This document shows positions 58,985 to 64,000 of a stretch of DNA of 64,000 nucleotides, in pieces (position 1 is the first letter of the stretch; each line of letters opens with the position of its first letter). The stretch is from contig PHBJ01000005.1 in NCBI GenBank assembly GCA_002840555.1, forward strand, positions 303,577 to 367,576. Direction: 5' to 3'. This DNA comes from Deltaproteobacteria bacterium HGW-Deltaproteobacteria-13. Its GTDB lineage: Bacteria > Desulfobacterota > Syntrophia > Syntrophales > Smithellaceae. A program made the position numbers and the translations under genes. A model generated the notes under the pieces. The model worked only from the letters and a program-made list of their open reading frames with translations. It was not told where the DNA came from and did not search any database.

Positions 58985-60667
58985 ATGACGCAAGATACAA
59001 CCTCTAACCCCACTGATTTCATCCGTGATATTATCGATGACGACCTGAAAACCAACAAGAACAACGGAAAAGTCGCTACCCGTTTTCCGCCGGAACCGAA
59101 CGGCTATATCCATATCGGACACGCCAAGTCCGTATGCCTCAATTTCGGCATCGCCCGGCAGTATCAGGGAACCTGTAACTTAAGACTTGATGATACCGAC
59201 CCGGCGGGGGAATCCATGGAATTCGTGGAATCGATCATTCATGACATCCGCTGGCTGGGATTTGACTGGGAGGATCGCCTGTTTTATGCCTCCGATTATT
59301 TCGAGAAGATTTATCAATTTGCCATCGAACTGATTAAATCCGGCAACGCGTATGTATGCTCTCTGAGCCCCGATGAAATCAGGGAGCTTCGCGGAACATT
59401 TACTGAACCGGGCAAAGACAGTCCCTATCGCAATCGAACCATTGAAGAAAATCTTGACCTGTTTGGCCGGATGCGGGCAGGCGAGTTTGCCGACGGCGCC
59501 CATGTTCTGCGCGCCAAAATTGACATGGCCGCGCCGAACATTGTCATGCGCGATCCCATTATCTACCGCATCAAACGGGAACCGCATTACCGGACAGGGA
59601 CAAAATGGGTCATTTATCCCATGTACGACTTCGCTCATTGTCTCTCCGACGCGCTGGAAGGCATCACCTACTCCATCTGCACACTGGAGTTTGAAAACAA
59701 CCGCCCCCTGTATGACTGGATTGTGGAGCGGTTGATCACCGGCTTGCGCCCCCGGCAGATCGAATTCGCCCGTCTCAATTTGAGTTACACGGTTCTGAGC
59801 AAACGCCGTCTTATCGAACTGGTGCAGGAAGGCCATGTGAAAGGATGGGACGATCCGCGCATGCCCACCGTCACGGGTCTGCGCCGCCGGGGCTACACTC
59901 CGGAAGCCATTAGAAATTTCTGCGCCCAGATCGGCGTTGCCAAAAACGACAATCTGATCGACGTGGCTCTGCTGGAACATTGCATCCGCGAAGACCTCAA
60001 TGAACACGCGCCCCGCGCAATGTGCGTTTTGCATCCCCTGCGCGTTGTCATCGACAATTACCCTGAAAACCAGGTGGAGCAATTCGAGTGCGCCAACCAT
60101 CCGCAAAATCCGGAAATGGGCACGCGAAAAATTCCTTTCTCTAAAGTTTTATACATCGAACAAGACGACTTTATGGAAAATCCGCCGAAAAAATATCATC
60201 GTCTGGGGCCAGGACGCGAAGTCCGCCTCAGAAACTCATATGTGATAAAATTTGAAAGCATGGTGAAGGACGATCGGACCGGCAACGTGTTGGAATTGCA
60301 CTGCACTTATGATCCGGATACGCTCAACGGCCCGCCGGCGGACGGCCGCAAGGTGCAGGGTGTTATCCACTGGGTGTCGGCGCAGCACGGTATCCCCGCC
60401 GAGATACGCCTATACGACCGTCTGTTCAGTATCGAGGATCCGGGAAGTGAAGAAAATTTTGTCAAGTATCTGAATCCGAATTCGTTGGAGATCCTGACGA
60501 CCTGCTATGTCGAACAAAACCTGAAAAACGCGGAACCGGGAAACCAATACCAGTTTGAAAGACTGGGGTATTTTTGCGTTGATGCGAAGGACACGGCCGC
60601 AGGGAAGCCTGTTTTCAACAGGGTTGTGCAGCTACGGGATTCGTGGGCCAAGATTGCAAAAAACTAA
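58985..60667 (+). CDS. glnS: Glutamine--tRNA ligase
   Basis: '[18 protein letters not shown]', 'YPMYDFAH', 'VLSKR', 'WDDPRMPT', 'QFERLGYF'. Confidence 0.97.
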
Positions 60668-60669
60668 TG

Positions 60670-60773
60670 AAAAACGCTCATCTGCTGCGTTGCGCTTCAG
60701 CTCTCGTTGCTCACGTACGTTAAAAGTACGCTCCGCTACTCGATCCTCGCGCGCCTTGCATCTAAGCATTTTT
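60670..60773. repeat. About 105-bp imperfect palindromic intergenic element (MITE/REP-like)
   Basis: Ends aaaaacgctcatctgc ... gcatctaagcattttt are imperfectly inverted around a central cgtac-gttaaaa-gtacg. Only one copy in the window. Confidence 0.55.
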
Positions 60774-60820
60774 GAATAGTCTTAAAAAGTTGGATTTTTG
60801 TAAGAATCTGATTTTAAATT

Positions 60821-60894
60821 TGGCTGGGGAATAAGGATTCGAACCTTAATAAACGGAGTCAGAGTCCGTTGTCCTACCATTGAACGATTCCCCA
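60821..60894 (-). tRNA. tRNA-Gln(CTG)
   Basis: TGGGGAATCGTTCAATGGTAGGACAACGGACTCTGACTCCGTTTATTAAGGTTCGAATCCTTATTCCCCAGCCA: complete cloverleaf with encoded CCA. Confidence 0.96.
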
Positions 60895-61302
60895 GCAAGG
60901 AATATTGAAAAGCGCCGCAGGTCCTGTTCTTTTTAGGGAAACGAACTTTCAGGCGGCGTGAATATAATGCGATTGCTTTATTATGTCAACAATTTTTCTT
61001 CTTTCTTTACTCCAGCCTTTTCCTCAATATCTCCGTATGCTTCTGATAATATTATTCGTGAATTAAAGGTACCCTTATAAATAAATTCAAATTTAACAAG
61101 AGGCTTTTTTCAGAATTATTTCCGCTAACTGCCGCCTTAAATTCCTGTTTCTCCATCCTGTCTTTTTATGTTACATTACAATATGCAATGGTTGGAATTA
61201 AACGGCACTGCCGGGGAACCGGAAACACACCGGGAAAAAACCATTGAGGTTGCGGATAATGATCATAACGGCTATCTTTGTTTTATCAATAAGGCGCGCA
61301 TC

Positions 61303-63627
61303 ATGACGGACAGCGATTTGGCCGCAAAACGCAGCAGACTCATGAGTAGAAGGAAATTTTGCGGCATTCTGGCGGGATCGCTGATCAGCACGGGATTCCT
61401 TCCGCCAATTTTGCAGGCACGGATTATGGAAACAACACCCAAAGAAGATATTTTCGCTTTTATGGATCGCACGGTGGGCAGGTTTGACCGCACAACTTAC
61501 CGGCAGCTCATCGGAGCAGCCAATGCGTTCAAGGAAGGTGATCAAATCATGGGCCTCGCCGCTACCGACGAGGCGATACGATCAAAAGCACGCCAGCTTT
61601 TATCCAACACCCGGATTGGCGATATTCTGCAACATCCGTTATTCGAAGACAAACTGTATTCCCGCCTGCTCGAAAATCTCTCTCCGGATTCGGTAAAAAA
61701 GCTCAGCTCCATGACGATGGGAGATCTGAAAGAATTTCTTCTGTCGCGAAAAGCCTCTGAAATTCAACCCATTCTCAATGGCTTGAGCAGCGATGTCATC
61801 GGGTGCGTGGTCAAGATCATGTCCAACGAAGAACTCATCGCCGTTGGACGGAAAATATTCAATCCTCTTGCCGGAACAGGCATTGGCGCCCAAGGATATA
61901 TGGGCGCCCGCATCCAGCCCAATTCCCCGACGGATAATCCCGATGACGTAATCTGGCAGATCTTTTCCGGATGGTCTTATGCGACAGGCGATGTTATTCT
62001 GGGAGTCAATCCGGTGAGCAGTTTACCGGAATCCGTTGCAGTCCTGGAAACAACGCTTTCCGAGCTCCGCAGCGTTTTTAAAGTTGAAGACATCATCCCT
62101 CACAGTGTTCTGGCTCATATAGATATTCAGGCGGCGGTGGAAAAACTGCAACCCCAAACCACGGGAGTCTGGTTTCAAAGCCTTGCCGGCAGCGACAAAG
62201 CAAACGCCACATTTGATATCTCCCTGGAAAAGATGCTTGACTATGCAGAGCAGAGGACGGGGCAATACGGATTTTATTTTGAAACCGGCCAGGGCGCGGA
62301 TTTCACCAACGGCAGCGGTCAGGGAACGGATATGGTTATTCACGAATCGCGTAAGTATGGTTTTGCCCGTCTGCTGAAAATGAAGATCGCTGAACAGCAG
62401 CAAAAATCCGGGCACATCCCTGCGCCGTGGGTGCATGTAAACGATGTGGCCGGGTTCATCGGACCGGAAGTCTTTCGCACCCGCGAACAACTGGTGCGCT
62501 GCTGTCTGGAAGATATCGTGATGGGCAAACTCCACGGGCTTACCATCGGTCTGGATATCTGCTCAACCCTGCATATGGACGTTACGCTGGATGACCTGGA
62601 CTGGTGCCAGGATCAGATCATGCCGGCCAATCCCGCGTACCTTATGGCCCTGCCGACTAAAAATGATCCCATGCTGGGATATCTGACAACCGCCTTTCAG
62701 GATCATGTCCGCCTTCGCGAAAAATTCGGTTACAAGGTCAATGACAGGATGTGGCAATTCTTTAAGAAGCTCGGCATCATTGACGCCGGGGGGCGTCCCA
62801 CGACTCTCTTTGGCGACCCTCTCTGGGTATGGTATCAGTACAGGCGTGCCAAAGGCGATACCCGTTCAAAAAATGAAATCATCCGTGAAGGAAAACAAAA
62901 GATGAAGGAAGTCCGCGCTCGCGGCGTTTATCTGGCGGAAGGATTTGACCGGAAAACCTGGAAAATGTCGCCGGCGCTTGATCGTGAAATTCGAGACCTT
63001 TACGCGGACGCCAAGAAATCCATCTGGGTCGAACTTGACCCGTCTTTTGTCGCGGCTATCCCGAAAGCGGTCCCTCTGAAAACCCGCTCACAGGATCGAA
63101 CCGATTATATCCTGCATCCGCAAACCGGAGAAGAATTGGATGAGCCCTCTTTGCAGACGATCAAAGCGCTTAAGGCAAAAAGAAGCGGGCAAAGCCAGGT
63201 GCAAATCATTATTTCCGATGGTCTGAATGCCCACGCCATCATGGATCAGGGGCATCTGGCTCCGTATCTTGCCACTCTCGCAAAATGTTTGTTAAAGAAT
63301 AATTTGAAACTTGCCCCTGAAATTCTGGTGATTAAAGGCGGCCGGGTCCGGGTGGGCTACCGCATTGGAGAAATCCTGTTTGATGCATTACCGGATGCGC
63401 AGGAACACAAGGCCATCATTCACATCATTGGCGAACGTCCCGGAACCATGCATCATACATTTTCAGCTTACATTTCCGCGCCAAGCGCAGGAATCTGGTC
63501 AAAGGCCAACATCGATCACAACATTACCCGTGTGGTTTCCGGTATAGCGGATACGGCGCTGGCCCCCGATATTGCCGCTCAAGAAACAGTAAAAATTATG
63601 GATGGTCTATGGAAAACGACAAGCTGA
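61303..63627 (+). CDS. eutBC: Fused ethanolamine ammonia-lyase large+small subunit (EutB-EutC) with N-terminal twin-arginine signal
   Basis: EutB motifs RIQPN, GVNP, FQSLAG, YFETGQG, GFIGPE, LED..MGKL. EutC motifs ISDGLNA, RVRVGYRIGE, IIGERPG. N-terminal SRRKFCGILAG...LQA. The ORF track starts at 61168; 61303 or 61342 is more likely. Confidence 0.88.
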   Translation: MTDSDLAAKRSRLMSRRKFCGILAGSLISTGFLPPILQARIMETTPKEDIFAFMDRTVGRFDRTTYRQLIGAANAFKEGDQIMGLAATDEAIRSKARQLLSNTRIGDILQHPLFEDKLYSRLLENLSPDSVKKLSSMTMGDLKEFLLSRKASEIQPILNGLSSDVIGCVVKIMSNEELIAVGRKIFNPLAGTGIGAQGYMGARIQPNSPTDNPDDVIWQIFSGWSYATGDVILGVNPVSSLPESVAVLETTLSELRSVFKVEDIIPHSVLAHIDIQAAVEKLQPQTTGVWFQSLAGSDKANATFDISLEKMLDYAEQRTGQYGFYFETGQGADFTNGSGQGTDMVIHESRKYGFARLLKMKIAEQQQKSGHIPAPWVHVNDVAGFIGPEVFRTREQLVRCCLEDIVMGKLHGLTIGLDICSTLHMDVTLDDLDWCQDQIMPANPAYLMALPTKNDPMLGYLTTAFQDHVRLREKFGYKVNDRMWQFFKKLGIIDAGGRPTTLFGDPLWVWYQYRRAKGDTRSKNEIIREGKQKMKEVRARGVYLAEGFDRKTWKMSPALDREIRDLYADAKKSIWVELDPSFVAAIPKAVPLKTRSQDRTDYILHPQTGEELDEPSLQTIKALKAKRSGQSQVQIIISDGLNAHAIMDQGHLAPYLATLAKCLLKNNLKLAPEILVIKGGRVRVGYRIGEILFDALPDAQEHKAIIHIIGERPGTMHHTFSAYISAPSAGIWSKANIDHNITRVVSGIADTALAPDIAAQETVKIMDGLWKTTS

Positions 63628-63737: not shown

Positions 63738-64000
63738 ATGAAGAAGAGTTTGATTATTTTTGTTGTTCTTTTGTCCATGCTCTGGAGCGCAGGCGCCTTT
63801 GCGGAAATCAAAGAAGGATTATGGGAAATCACGACGCAGGTGGAGATTAAAGAGATGCCGCAAGCCATGCCGCCCACCACGACCCGTCAATGCATAACCC
63901 AAAGTGATCCCGTTCCCAAAAACGAGGATAAAAACCATGATTGTAAAATCATCGATCAGAAGGTCAGCGGCAGCAAGATCAGCTATACTGTGGAATGCAA
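63738..64000 (+). CDS. DUF3617-like exported protein (truncated by window end)
   Basis: Manual translation MKKSLIIFVVLLSMLWSAGAFAEIKEGLWEITTQVEIKEMPQAMPPTTTRQCITQ...CKIIDQKVSGSKISYTVEC, with AGGAG RBS. Confidence 0.8.
   Translation, partial: MKKSLIIFVVLLSMLWSAGAFAEIKEGLWEITTQVEIKEMPQAMPPTTTRQCITQSDPVPKNEDKNHDCKIIDQKVSGSKISYTVEC

What the first reader, a model, noticed from the sequence alone, without database searches (positions are those of the whole stretch)
61303..63627. Single-chain EutB-EutC with an apparent Tat export signal
Seen: one ORF contains both subunits' motifs, preceded by MSRRKFCGILAGSLISTGFLPPILQA (twin-arginine consensus S-R-R-x-F, hydrophobic stretch, plausible cleavage site). 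No eutA reactivase, transporter, aldehyde dehydrogenase or microcompartment genes are nearby. Established: ethanolamine ammonia-lyase is an adenosylcobalamin radical enzyme known as a cytoplasmic, two-subunit protein; Tat exports folded cofactor-loaded proteins. Inference: a periplasmic B12 radical enzyme, which could release ammonia and acetaldehyde outside the cytoplasm or act on a different amino alcohol. Several motif substitutions (e.g. PNSPTDN, CSTLH, GYLTTAFQD) hint at altered specificity.
Basis: partly seen in the sequence, partly recalled or inferred. Interest (0 to 1): 0.7.

Follow-up and report, generated by a model that had tools for sequence, protein, structure and literature searches.

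The report
Exported single-chain ethanolamine ammonia-lyase (Tat-EutBC)
This gene encodes a vitamin-B12-dependent ethanolamine-splitting enzyme whose two subunits are fused and preceded by a conserved folded-protein export signal, so it probably works outside the cytoplasm, a location I found reported for this enzyme class in no paper I could search.

Summary
Window 61303-63627 (+) is one 774-aa protein with a twin-arginine leader (aa 1-40), a EutB domain (65-500), a helical linker and a EutC domain (563-770).

The leader is translated and selected. Its pN/pS is 0.30, against 0.27 for the mature start. In three close relatives the residue before S-R-R is Ile, so their start lies upstream.

About 80% of some 200 relatives from at least eight phyla carry [MLI]-[SN]-R-R-x-F-[CL]. 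At least 15 of these add a lipoprotein box, and one has a Sec-like leader instead.

The genome has TatA, TatB and TatC, and ten other RR-leader proteins from classic Tat families. It has no EutA, EutH or microcompartment shell. It does have a CobA adenosyltransferase, a riboswitch-controlled B12 uptake locus and four aldehyde:ferredoxin oxidoreductases.

All ten checked E. coli active-site positions are conserved, so a changed substrate is not indicated.

My best reading is a Tat-exported periplasmic ethanolamine ammonia-lyase. Export itself is untested. I found no paper describing this. Earlier notes of this scan reached the same reading in other genomes.

New here: Sinorhizobium meliloti strains carry a 56%-identical Tat-leader homolog and offer a tractable test system.

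The parts
61290..61294 (+). Shine-Dalgarno-like TAAGG, 8 nt before the ATG at 61303
   Evidence: Read directly from the sequence. No comparable motif precedes the ATG at 61342 or the ATG at 61168.
61303..63627 (+). Complete coding sequence of the fused Tat-EutBC (774 aa plus stop)
   Evidence: It is the only EutB homolog in the genome.
61303..61341 (+). n-region extension of the leader (aa 1-13, MTDSDLAAKRSRL)
   Evidence: The Met position is conserved in nine close relatives. The sequence itself is weakly constrained (pN/pS 0.73).
61342..61422 (+). Twin-arginine motif S15-R16-R17-K-F-C, h-region GILAGSLISTGFLPPIL, c-region L-Q-A. Predicted cleavage after A40 (61422|61423).
   Evidence: pN/pS is 0.30. 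The consensus over 164 relatives is [MLI]-[SN]-R-R-x-F-[CL]. Mean hydropathy is 1.09, like the genome's classical RR-leader proteins (0.81-1.52) and below its Sec/TM-like RR hits (2.1-3.0). AF2 pLDDT is below 50 for aa 1-30.
61495..62802 (+). EutB (large subunit, TIM-barrel) domain, aa 65-500
   Evidence: Pfam PF06751, E 1e-134. Foldseek TM-score 0.86 to 3ABO chain A. R203, Q205, N236, F291, E327, F385, D418, M448, L458 and Y460 align with E. coli R160, Q162, N193, F245, E287, F329, D362, M392, L402 and Y404.
62803..62988 (+). Conserved helical linker, aa 501-562. It replaces the N-terminal part of a free-standing EutC, which in E. coli and Salmonella carries the microcompartment-targeting peptide (my own knowledge).
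   Evidence: Alignment to E. coli EutB and EutC. AF2 helices 506-516, 523-539 and 557-573 lie in 10-residue blocks with mean pLDDT of about 78-97. The motif PLWVWxQYRxAKGD is conserved across the clade.
62989..63612 (+). EutC (small subunit, cobalamin-side) domain, aa 563-770
   Evidence: Pfam PF05985, E 8e-32. Foldseek TM-score 0.70-0.72 to 3ABO chains B and D. The stretches VQIIISDGLN and IGERPG align with E. coli VQVVISDGLS and VGERPG.

Best explanation
The gene encodes a catalytically competent, adenosylcobalamin-type ethanolamine ammonia-lyase built as one chain (EutB, helical linker, EutC) behind a functional twin-arginine signal peptide.

Proposed mechanism:
- The protein folds in the cytoplasm. 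It probably binds AdoCbl there, made from imported cobamide by the genome's CobA-type adenosyltransferase.
- TatABC moves it across the inner membrane, and signal peptidase I cuts after L-Q-A40.
- In the periplasm it splits ethanolamine, for example from phosphatidylethanolamine head groups of decaying biomass, into ammonia and acetaldehyde.
- Ammonia is taken up as a nitrogen source. Acetaldehyde diffuses in and is oxidised by the genome's aldehyde:ferredoxin oxidoreductases.
- Working outside the cytoplasm would do what the microcompartment does in enterobacteria, namely keep acetaldehyde away from the cytoplasm. It would also remove the need for an ethanolamine permease.

Shown here: the domain architecture, intact active-site positions, a translated and selected leader, conservation of the leader across phyla, Tat machinery in the genome, and absence of EutA, EutH and shell genes.

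Inferred: export itself, the cleavage site, cofactor loading before export, the substrate, and the physiological role.
For: Enzyme identity:
- EutB and EutC domains lie in one chain.
- The AF2 model has mean pLDDT 85. TM-scores are 0.86 to 3ABO_A and 0.70-0.72 to 3ABO_B/D.
- All ten checked E. coli active-site positions are conserved here and in 74-75 of 75 signal-bearing crown-clade members.

The leader is real:
- pN/pS is 0.30 for codons 14-40, against 0.27 for codons 41-110 and 0.73 for codons 1-13.
- Three close homologs have Ile before S-R-R, so their start must be upstream.

The leader is conserved by its features, not its sequence:
- 100 of 119 database homologs carry an RR or RK leader (13 of them with a lipobox). 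So do 66 of 80 genome loci, counting four RK/KK variants.
- The loci come from Thermodesulfobacteriota, Planctomycetota, Myxococcota, Bacteroidota, Balneolota, Acidobacteriota, Verrucomicrobiota and Pseudomonadota.
- The motif consensus is [MLI]-[SN]-R-R-x-F-[CL].
- At least 15 members have RR followed by a strict lipobox such as LLGCG.
- The Riflebacteria member has a Sec-like leader further upstream in frame.
- The S. meliloti homolog is 56% identical in the mature part. Its leader does not align with the window's but has the same build: GLTRRDLLLMAGATATLASYSHA|A.
- Different export signals on the same enzyme argue that the selected trait is an extracytoplasmic location.

The genome is competent:
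- TatC with an adjacent TatB-like gene, plus a TatA-like gene elsewhere.
- Ten other RR-leader proteins were scanned. Most belong to classic Tat families: NiFe hydrogenase small subunit, two molybdopterin oxidoreductases, Fe-S subunits and FAD flavoproteins.
- CobA/BtuR next to methylmalonyl-CoA mutase.
- A cobalamin riboswitch before a TonB-dependent receptor and ECF transporter genes.
- Four AOR genes.

No cytoplasmic eut apparatus: EutA, EutH and BMC shell families are absent. There is no conserved neighbour: among the 67 same-strand adjacent ORFs scanned, drawn from the 80 loci, no family occurs more than four times.

Positive-inside rule (inference): the R/K residues sit on the N-terminal side of the h-region, so the catalytic domain would face outwards even if the leader were not cleaved.
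Against: - No experimental localisation exists for any member.
- The Pfam PF10518 and NCBIfam Tat-signal models give no hit on the window's own leader, even at E up to 10. The same Pfam model reaches its cut-off on only 1 of 10 RR-leader proteins of this genome, so the test is weak.
- Canonical EAL is a large multi-subunit complex (about 0.5 MDa; my own knowledge). That would be far larger than known Tat cargo, so this enzyme would have to travel as a monomer or dimer and assemble outside, or not assemble that way at all.
- Canonical EAL inactivates during turnover and needs the ATP-dependent reactivase EutA (my own knowledge). There is no ATP in the periplasm. P. carbinolicus, which has fused EutBC, also lacks eutA, and strains of that species grow on ethanolamine (PMC3543383).
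- Signal-less members exist inside the clade: a Myxococcota paralog clade and P0053/P0059. The enzyme therefore also works, or once worked, in the cytoplasm.
- The gene is present in only 3 of 25 genomes of the same genus, the window's own included.
Confidence: 0.68

Rival explanations
1. The leader is a real Tat signal, but signal peptidase I does not remove it. It stays as an N-terminal membrane anchor, as in Rieske proteins, so the enzyme is tethered to the periplasmic face of the inner membrane rather than soluble.
For: L at position -3 of L-Q-A is tolerated but not ideal for signal peptidase I (my own knowledge). At least 15 relatives have converted to lipoprotein anchoring, so membrane tethering is compatible with function. 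Some Planctomycetota leaders lack an obvious A-x-A site.
Against: The close relatives keep a small residue at -1 in L-Q-A, preceded by the helix-breaking P-P. The h-region is short and only weakly hydrophobic (mean hydropathy 1.09), which is poor for a stable transmembrane helix.
Confidence: 0.13
2. The RR leader is vestigial or has been put to another use, as in the remnant Tat motif of NarG. It might bind a chaperone or hold the enzyme at the cytoplasmic face of the membrane, and the enzyme works in the cytoplasm.
For: AdoCbl supply, adenosylation and any repair are cytoplasmic processes. Signal-less paralogs and stem-group fusions exist. The Tat-signal profile models do not score this leader.
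Against: The leader has a complete n-, h- and c-region and is under purifying selection. Relatives have exchanged it for Tat-lipoprotein leaders, and one for a Sec-like leader, which makes no sense for a non-export function. No chaperone-like gene is a conserved neighbour. The genome has no ethanolamine permease of the EutH type.
Confidence: 0.1
3. The enzyme is exported, but its physiological substrate is another vicinal amino alcohol, for example an aminopropanol or a larger amino alcohol released in the envelope, and not ethanolamine.
For: Clade-wide substitutions lie close in sequence to the active site: E. coli Y365 to S421, N367 to L423, N403 to G459/S, plus a 15-residue insertion after aa 356. 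There is no eut regulon context.
Against: All ten checked E. coli EutB active-site positions are identical. [quoted passage not shown] I could not confirm that those copies belong to the signal-bearing clade.
Confidence: 0.15
4. Gene-call artefact: the true start is the Met at aa 42 (METTPK), and the RR stretch is untranslated 5' sequence.
For: An in-frame ATG exists at aa 42.
Against: pN/pS over the leader is 0.30. The frame is kept open with a conserved start position in nine close relatives. Features are conserved in about 160 distant ones. Most homologs have L or I, not M, at the position of M42.
Confidence: 0.02

Closest known systems
Canonical ethanolamine ammonia-lyase EutB + EutC of E. 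coli, Salmonella and Listeria (PDB 3ABO, 2QEZ; EC 4.3.1.7)
   Same: Both domains, the fold (TM-score 0.86 and 0.70) and all ten checked active-site positions match. The EutC stretches VQxxISDGL and GERPG are kept.
   Different: It is one chain, not two. It has a 40-aa Tat leader, and a helical linker replaces the N-terminal part of EutC. The clade has its own cysteines (C168, C400, C401, C435) and a 15-aa insertion. It sits in no eut operon, and the genome has no EutA reactivase, no shell proteins and no EutH. The mature EutB part is about 30% identical to E. coli EutB (Foldseek).
Fused EutBC1/EutBC2 of Pelobacter (Syntrophotalea) carbinolicus (Pcar_0491, Pcar_0467; PMC3543383)
   Same: Single-chain EutB-EutC in an anaerobic deltaproteobacterium whose genome has no eutA. 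Aldehyde:ferredoxin oxidoreductase is the proposed sink for acetaldehyde.
   Different: There the genes sit in a 43-gene cluster with a periplasmic binding protein, a multi-transmembrane protein and cobalamin genes. Here the gene stands alone. The paper does not mention a signal. I could not fetch those sequences to check their leaders.
Tat-exported corrinoid reductive dehalogenases (PceA/RdhA type)
   Same: This is a precedent that a corrinoid-loaded enzyme can be a Tat substrate (my own knowledge, not tested here).
   Different: Those enzymes use a non-adenosylated corrinoid plus Fe-S clusters for reductive chemistry. I know of no AdoCbl radical eliminase or mutase described as exported.
Eut bacterial microcompartment (metabolosome)
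   Same: It would solve the same problem, keeping volatile and toxic acetaldehyde away from the cytoplasm (inference).
   Different: The compartment here would be the periplasm, not a protein shell. The shell family PF00936 is absent from the genome.

Membership tests
Ethanolamine ammonia-lyase (EutB/EutC) | EutB large-subunit domain above curated cut-offs | tested here: met
   Pfam PF06751 scores 449.9 bits against a cut-off of 25. NCBIfam NF011649 scores 585.6 against 554.
Ethanolamine ammonia-lyase (EutB/EutC) | EutC small-subunit domain above curated cut-offs | tested here: inconclusive
   Pfam PF05985 scores 110.9 bits against 25.8, so it is met. The NCBIfam equivalog NF003971 scores 82.3 against 230, so it is not met. 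The fold matches 3ABO_B at TM-score 0.70.
Ethanolamine ammonia-lyase (EutB/EutC) | Active-site residues of E. coli EutB: R160, Q162, N193, E287, D362 (substrate-bonding, from my recollection of the structure papers) plus F245, F329, M392, L402, Y404 | tested here: met
   All ten are identical in the pairwise alignment. They are also identical in 74-75 of 75 signal-bearing crown-clade members.
Ethanolamine ammonia-lyase (EutB/EutC) | Two separate subunits encoded by adjacent genes | tested here: not met
   There is one ORF with no stop between the domains. The fusion is shared by the whole clade.
Ethanolamine ammonia-lyase (EutB/EutC) | AdoCbl-dependent conversion of ethanolamine to acetaldehyde and ammonia | not testable with these tools
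   This needs an enzyme assay.
Tat (twin-arginine) substrates | S/T-R-R-x-F-L-K-like motif between a polar n-region and a weakly hydrophobic h-region, followed by an A-x-A-type c-region | tested here: met
   The leader reads S15-R-R-K-F-C, h-region GILAGSLISTGFLPPIL, c-region L-Q-A. Its hydropathy (1.09) lies within the range of the genome's classical RR-leader proteins.
Tat (twin-arginine) substrates | Match to the curated Tat-signal profile models (Pfam PF10518; NCBIfam's Tat-signal model, TIGR01409 as I recall it) | tested here: not met
   No hit at E up to 10. As a control, the Pfam model reaches its cut-off on only 1 of 10 RR-leader proteins of this genome. One Bacteroidota homolog scores 18.9 bits, below the cut-off.
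Tat (twin-arginine) substrates | Tat translocase encoded in the genome | tested here: met
   TatC scores 253.7 bits at C18:74642-75277. A TatB-like 103-aa ORF lies directly upstream, and a TatA-like 60-aa ORF is on C22.
Tat (twin-arginine) substrates | Tat- and RR-dependent export shown experimentally | not testable with these tools
   No experiment was found for any member in the papers searched.
eut operon / Eut microcompartment system | Shell proteins, EutA reactivase and EutH permease accompanying EutBC | tested here: not met
   PF00936 gives 0 hits. PF06277 gives only a 22.8-bit hit, below the cut-off. PF04346 gives 0 hits. None is a neighbour in the 80 related loci.

The most novel reading that the evidence does not exclude
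A multi-phylum clade of single-chain EutBC enzymes performs adenosylcobalamin radical chemistry outside the cytoplasm. As far as I could find, it would be the first extracytoplasmic AdoCbl enzyme. On this reading the periplasm replaces the Eut microcompartment as the acetaldehyde-containing compartment. The enzyme would work without an ATP-dependent reactivase, either as a limited-lifetime catalyst or because it is intrinsically resistant to suicide inactivation. A bolder sub-variant, which I give about 15%: the apo-enzyme is exported and picks up adenosylcobamide arriving through the TonB-dependent receptor, at least in the member with a Sec-type leader.
Probability: 0.55. Interest if true: 0.8.

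Novelty: new variant of a known kind. Interest (0 to 1): 0.62.

Why it matters
Ethanolamine ammonia-lyase is a textbook AdoCbl radical enzyme. Everything known about it assumes a cytoplasmic or microcompartment setting: cofactor adenosylation, EutA-driven reactivation and acetaldehyde containment.

A conserved export signal on several hundred homologs would mean three things:
- B12 radical chemistry also runs in the periplasm.
- Bacteria have a second, shell-free way to handle acetaldehyde toxicity.
- Ethanolamine from membrane turnover can be mined for nitrogen without a permease.

It would also add a new cofactor class to Tat cargo. It raises a testable question about how the enzyme survives without repair.

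Lab strains of Sinorhizobium meliloti carry a homolog, so these points can be tested directly by genetics and cell fractionation.

Tried and rejected
- **Riboswitch or other RNA element upstream:** none found. There is only a tRNA-Gln(CTG) on the opposite strand at 60821-60894.
- **Conserved operon partner** (transporter, chaperone, reactivase, aldehyde dehydrogenase): 827 neighbour ORFs from the 80 loci were clustered. Of the 71 same-strand adjacent ORFs, 67 were scanned against Pfam. Nothing recurs beyond lineage noise such as kinases, sulfatases and DUF1501.
- **Tat-signal profile models:** no hit on the window's leader. The control shows the test is insensitive.
- **Foreign-island idea:** the gene's GC (0.47-0.52) matches its neighbours, so there is no compositional sign.
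- **Periplasm-specific cysteines:** C168, C400, C401 and C435 are specific to the crown clade. They are equally kept in its signal-less members, so they do not track export. I could not measure distances because model coordinates are not exposed.
- **Promoter and terminator scans:** no more sites than in shuffled sequence.
- **Literature:** ten full-text searches found no report of an exported EAL. The S. meliloti Tat-secretome papers of Pickering and Oresnik are not held. The E. coli EAL structure paper is not held either, so the roles I give to residues rest on my own knowledge plus the alignment.
- **P. carbinolicus sequences:** they could not be fetched, so I did not test their leaders.
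Full report
**1. The observation**

The window holds one long ORF, 61168-63627 on the + strand. From the ATG at 61303 it encodes 774 aa.

Pfam places EutB at aa 65-500 (E 1e-134) and EutC at aa 563-770 (E 8e-32) in the same chain. The NCBIfam EutB model passes its cut-off (585.6 against 554 bits). The EutC equivalog model does not (82.3 against 230 bits).

The N-terminus reads MTDSDLAAKRSRL-MSRRKFCGILAGSLISTGFLPPILQA|RIMETTPKEDIF. This is the only EutB homolog in the 3.51-Mb, 29-contig genome.

**2. Which start, and is the leader translated?**

- A TAAGG lies 8 nt before the ATG at 61303. Nothing comparable precedes 61342 or 61168.
- Nine close relatives (74-83% identical) all begin with a Met 13-14 codons before S-R-R. 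In three of them the residue just before S-R-R is Ile, so their start must be the upstream one.
- Nei-Gojobori counts over these ten sequences give pN/pS of 0.73 for codons 1-13, 0.30 for codons 14-40 (RR motif to L-Q-A) and 0.27 for codons 41-110.
- The leader is therefore as constrained as the enzyme itself. pS is about 0.6, so the ratios are approximate.
- Most homologs have Leu or Ile where the window has M42.

**3. How general is the leader?**

- The word-indexed search returned 120 fused EutB-EutC proteins at 60-100% identity. By a simple rule set, 100 of 119 carry an RR or RK motif followed by an uncharged hydrophobic stretch. Several of the rest are visibly truncated gene calls.
- A scan of one genome per species kept 80 loci.
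- Of those 80 loci, 66 have an RR-type leader (62 with RR, four with RK or KK). They come from Thermodesulfobacteriota, Planctomycetota, Myxococcota, Bacteroidota, Balneolota, Acidobacteriota, Verrucomicrobiota and Pseudomonadota.
- Over 164 leaders the consensus is [MLI]-[SN]-R-R-x-F-[CL]-x-x-[LM]-A. Arg occupies the two key positions in 163 and 160 sequences, and Phe follows in 128.
- At least 15 members, mostly Myxococcota, follow RR with a strict lipobox such as LLGCG.
- The Riflebacteria member has no RR. Its open frame continues upstream into a Sec-like leader.
- The leaders of distant members do not align with the window's leader but have the same build. That is how signal peptides evolve.
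- The switch between signal types is my strongest argument that the selected trait is a location outside the cytoplasm.

**4. Evolution**

A maximum-likelihood tree of 102 sequences was rooted on canonical-type enzymes.

- Next to the outgroup come fused but signal-less stem lineages. These include eukaryote-like proteins.
- Then comes a crown group of 86 rows (SH-aLRT 96) in which nearly all members bear the leader.
- Signal-less members of the crown are a Myxococcota paralog clade of 8 rows (support 100) and the pair P0053/P0059.
- Several Archangium genomes hold both that signal-less paralog and a Tat-lipoprotein copy.
- P0053/P0059 are nested inside the Smithellaceae clade that contains the window protein, so they represent a loss.
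- The window protein sits in a starred 12-row clade with Smithella and Smithellaceae sequences. The organism is therefore probably a Smithella-like syntroph.
- The gene is accessory. It is found in 3 of 25 genomes of the same genus, the window's own included, and in 0 of 16 genomes from other families of the order.
- Phyla are interleaved in the tree, which points to horizontal transfer.

**5. Is it still an ethanolamine ammonia-lyase?**

- I aligned the protein to E. coli EutB and EutC taken from MG1655.
- R160, Q162, N193, F245, E287, F329, D362, M392, L402 and Y404 are all identical.
- The first three plus E287 and D362 are, from my recollection of the E. coli structure papers, the substrate-bonding residues. 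That paper is not held. E287's catalytic role is cited in PMC8473560 and PMC4413051.
- The same residues are kept in 74-75 of 75 signal-bearing crown members. The one exception is the degenerate P0131.
- The AlphaFold model (83-sequence alignment, mean pLDDT 85, pTM 0.87) is disordered for aa 1-30, as expected for a signal peptide.
- The model superposes on 3ABO chain A (TM-score 0.86) and chains B/D (0.70-0.72).
- Clade-wide differences are Y365S, N367L, N403G/S, a 15-residue insertion, four extra cysteines and a helical linker in place of the N-terminal part of EutC.
- I read this as the same chemistry, most likely on the same substrate. Altered specificity is possible but not indicated.

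**6. Does the genome support the model?**

- *Tat machinery.* TatC is present. A TatB-like gene lies directly upstream of it, and a TatA-like gene is on another contig.
- *Other Tat cargo.* A loose RR-motif scan of 3356 ORFs gave 56 hits. Ten with classical leaders were annotated. They include a NiFe hydrogenase small subunit, two molybdopterin oxidoreductases, Fe-S subunits and two FAD flavoproteins. Their h-region hydropathy (0.81-1.52) brackets that of EutBC (1.09). Sec/TM-like hits with a chance RR score 2.1-3.0.
- *A weak negative.* The Pfam and NCBIfam Tat-signal models do not score the EutBC leader. The Pfam model passes its cut-off on only one of the ten controls.
- *Cofactor.* There is no PduO/EutT-type adenosyltransferase and no CobS. 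There is a CobA/BtuR adenosyltransferase next to methylmalonyl-CoA mutase. One cobalamin riboswitch precedes a TonB-dependent receptor and ECF transporter genes. The organism therefore salvages cobamides and can make AdoCbl in the cytoplasm. This fits loading before Tat export but does not prove it.
- *Downstream metabolism.* Four aldehyde:ferredoxin oxidoreductase genes are present.
- *Missing eut apparatus.* EutA, EutH and BMC shell genes are absent.

**7. Context**

- Upstream lie a cyclopropane-fatty-acid synthase, a small unassigned ORF, glnS and a tRNA-Gln on the opposite strand.
- Downstream lie a DUF3617 secreted protein, a PAS/HD-GYP regulator and others.
- None of these recurs next to homologs. 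No Pfam family occurs in more than 4 of the 67 same-strand adjacent ORFs scanned.
- There is no compositional anomaly.
- The gene looks like a self-sufficient, stand-alone unit.

**8. What is known**

- Ten full-text searches found no description of an exported EAL.
- The only mention of fused EutBC is the Pelobacter carbinolicus genome paper. It calls the fusion unusual and notes that eutA is missing. It does not mention a signal.
- Earlier AI notes of this scan report the same family and the same reading in at least nine other genomes. I treated them as leads and re-derived the evidence independently.

- Selection statistics on the leader.
- The genome-internal Tat control set.
- The cofactor-supply picture for this genome.
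- The tree with signal losses.
- A tractable model. A 782-aa homolog, 56% identical in the mature part, has the leader GLTRRDLLLMAGATATLASYSHA|A.
  - It sits on megaplasmids of 16 S. meliloti records at 99% nucleotide identity or more, including Rm41, SM11, GR4, BL225C and RU11/001.
  - It sits at 80-83% identity in S. fredii, S. terangae, Ensifer canadensis and Pararhizobium.
  - In the one annotated record the CDS start includes the RR leader.

**10. Verdict**

Open problems:
- Export is untested.
- The oligomeric state compatible with Tat transport is unknown.
- How the cofactor is loaded is unknown.
- How the enzyme copes without a reactivase is unknown.

I rate it a new variant of a known kind. 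It is of real interest to B12 and Tat specialists. It is not new within this scan.

Noticed in passing
P0124 (metagenome protein, 1110 aa); also P0128 and P0130: Stem-group fused EutBC proteins look eukaryotic. P0124 carries two C2 (lipid-binding) domains in front of EutB-EutC. P0128 and P0130 have long low-complexity inserts. A B12-dependent EAL in protists, perhaps targeted to membranes, is not something I know to be described.
   Followed up: partly
P0131 (779 aa, groups with locus L058 in the tree): A long-branch member keeps a Tat-lipobox leader but has lost several active-site residues (R203H, Q205R, N236D, F291H, F385A in window numbering). It may be an exported pseudo-enzyme or binding protein.
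   Followed up: partly
L022/L032 (Archangium sp. SMAG_U3264) and L027/L060 (A. violaceum Cb vi76): The same Archangium genomes hold two fused EutBC paralogs, one with a Tat-lipoprotein leader and one with no signal. This is a natural pair for comparing periplasmic and cytoplasmic versions.
   Followed up: partly
L014 9650-12238 (Candidatus Riflebacteria): The annotated protein (P0075) starts without a signal. The open frame continues upstream into a Sec-like leader (MENSRFSGTLVLPVLALGLLLQPGFSQ). A Sec route would imply that the cofactor is loaded outside the cytoplasm.
   Followed up: no
L106 5845-8193 (S. meliloti BL225C megaplasmid); L108 8001-10349: S. meliloti, S. fredii, S. terangae, Ensifer canadensis and Pararhizobium megaplasmids carry a stand-alone Tat-leader EutBC next to glycosyl-transferase and glucoamylase-family genes. 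No record named strain 1021 appears among the 25 matching records.
   Followed up: partly
G000 C9:126880-131370: The genome's only cobalamin riboswitch precedes a TonB-dependent receptor. It is followed by a 178-aa BioY/CbrT-like membrane protein and EcfA- and EcfT-like genes. This pairs an outer-membrane receptor with an ECF-type importer for B12. CobS and PduO/EutT-type adenosyltransferase are absent from the genome.
   Followed up: partly
G000 C12:19884-20438 and C19:115744-116397: Two Tat-leader molybdopterin oxidoreductase ORFs stop after 185 and 218 aa, just past the Fe4S4 domain. This would fit an in-frame TGA selenocysteine codon, as in formate dehydrogenases. I did not check the codon.
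   Followed up: no
window 58985-60894: glnS (GlnRS) is followed by a convergently oriented tRNA-Gln(CTG), directly upstream of the EutBC gene.
   Followed up: no
window 63738-64000, continuing to L002 4157: A 139-aa Sec-signal DUF3617 protein lies 110 nt downstream on the same strand. It is not conserved next to homologs.
   Followed up: partly
crown-clade alignment, window aa 168, 400, 401, 435: Four cysteines, including the vicinal pair in R-C-C-L-E-D, are nearly invariant in the crown clade and absent from canonical EutB. They are kept whether or not a signal is present. Their role is unknown.
   Followed up: partly
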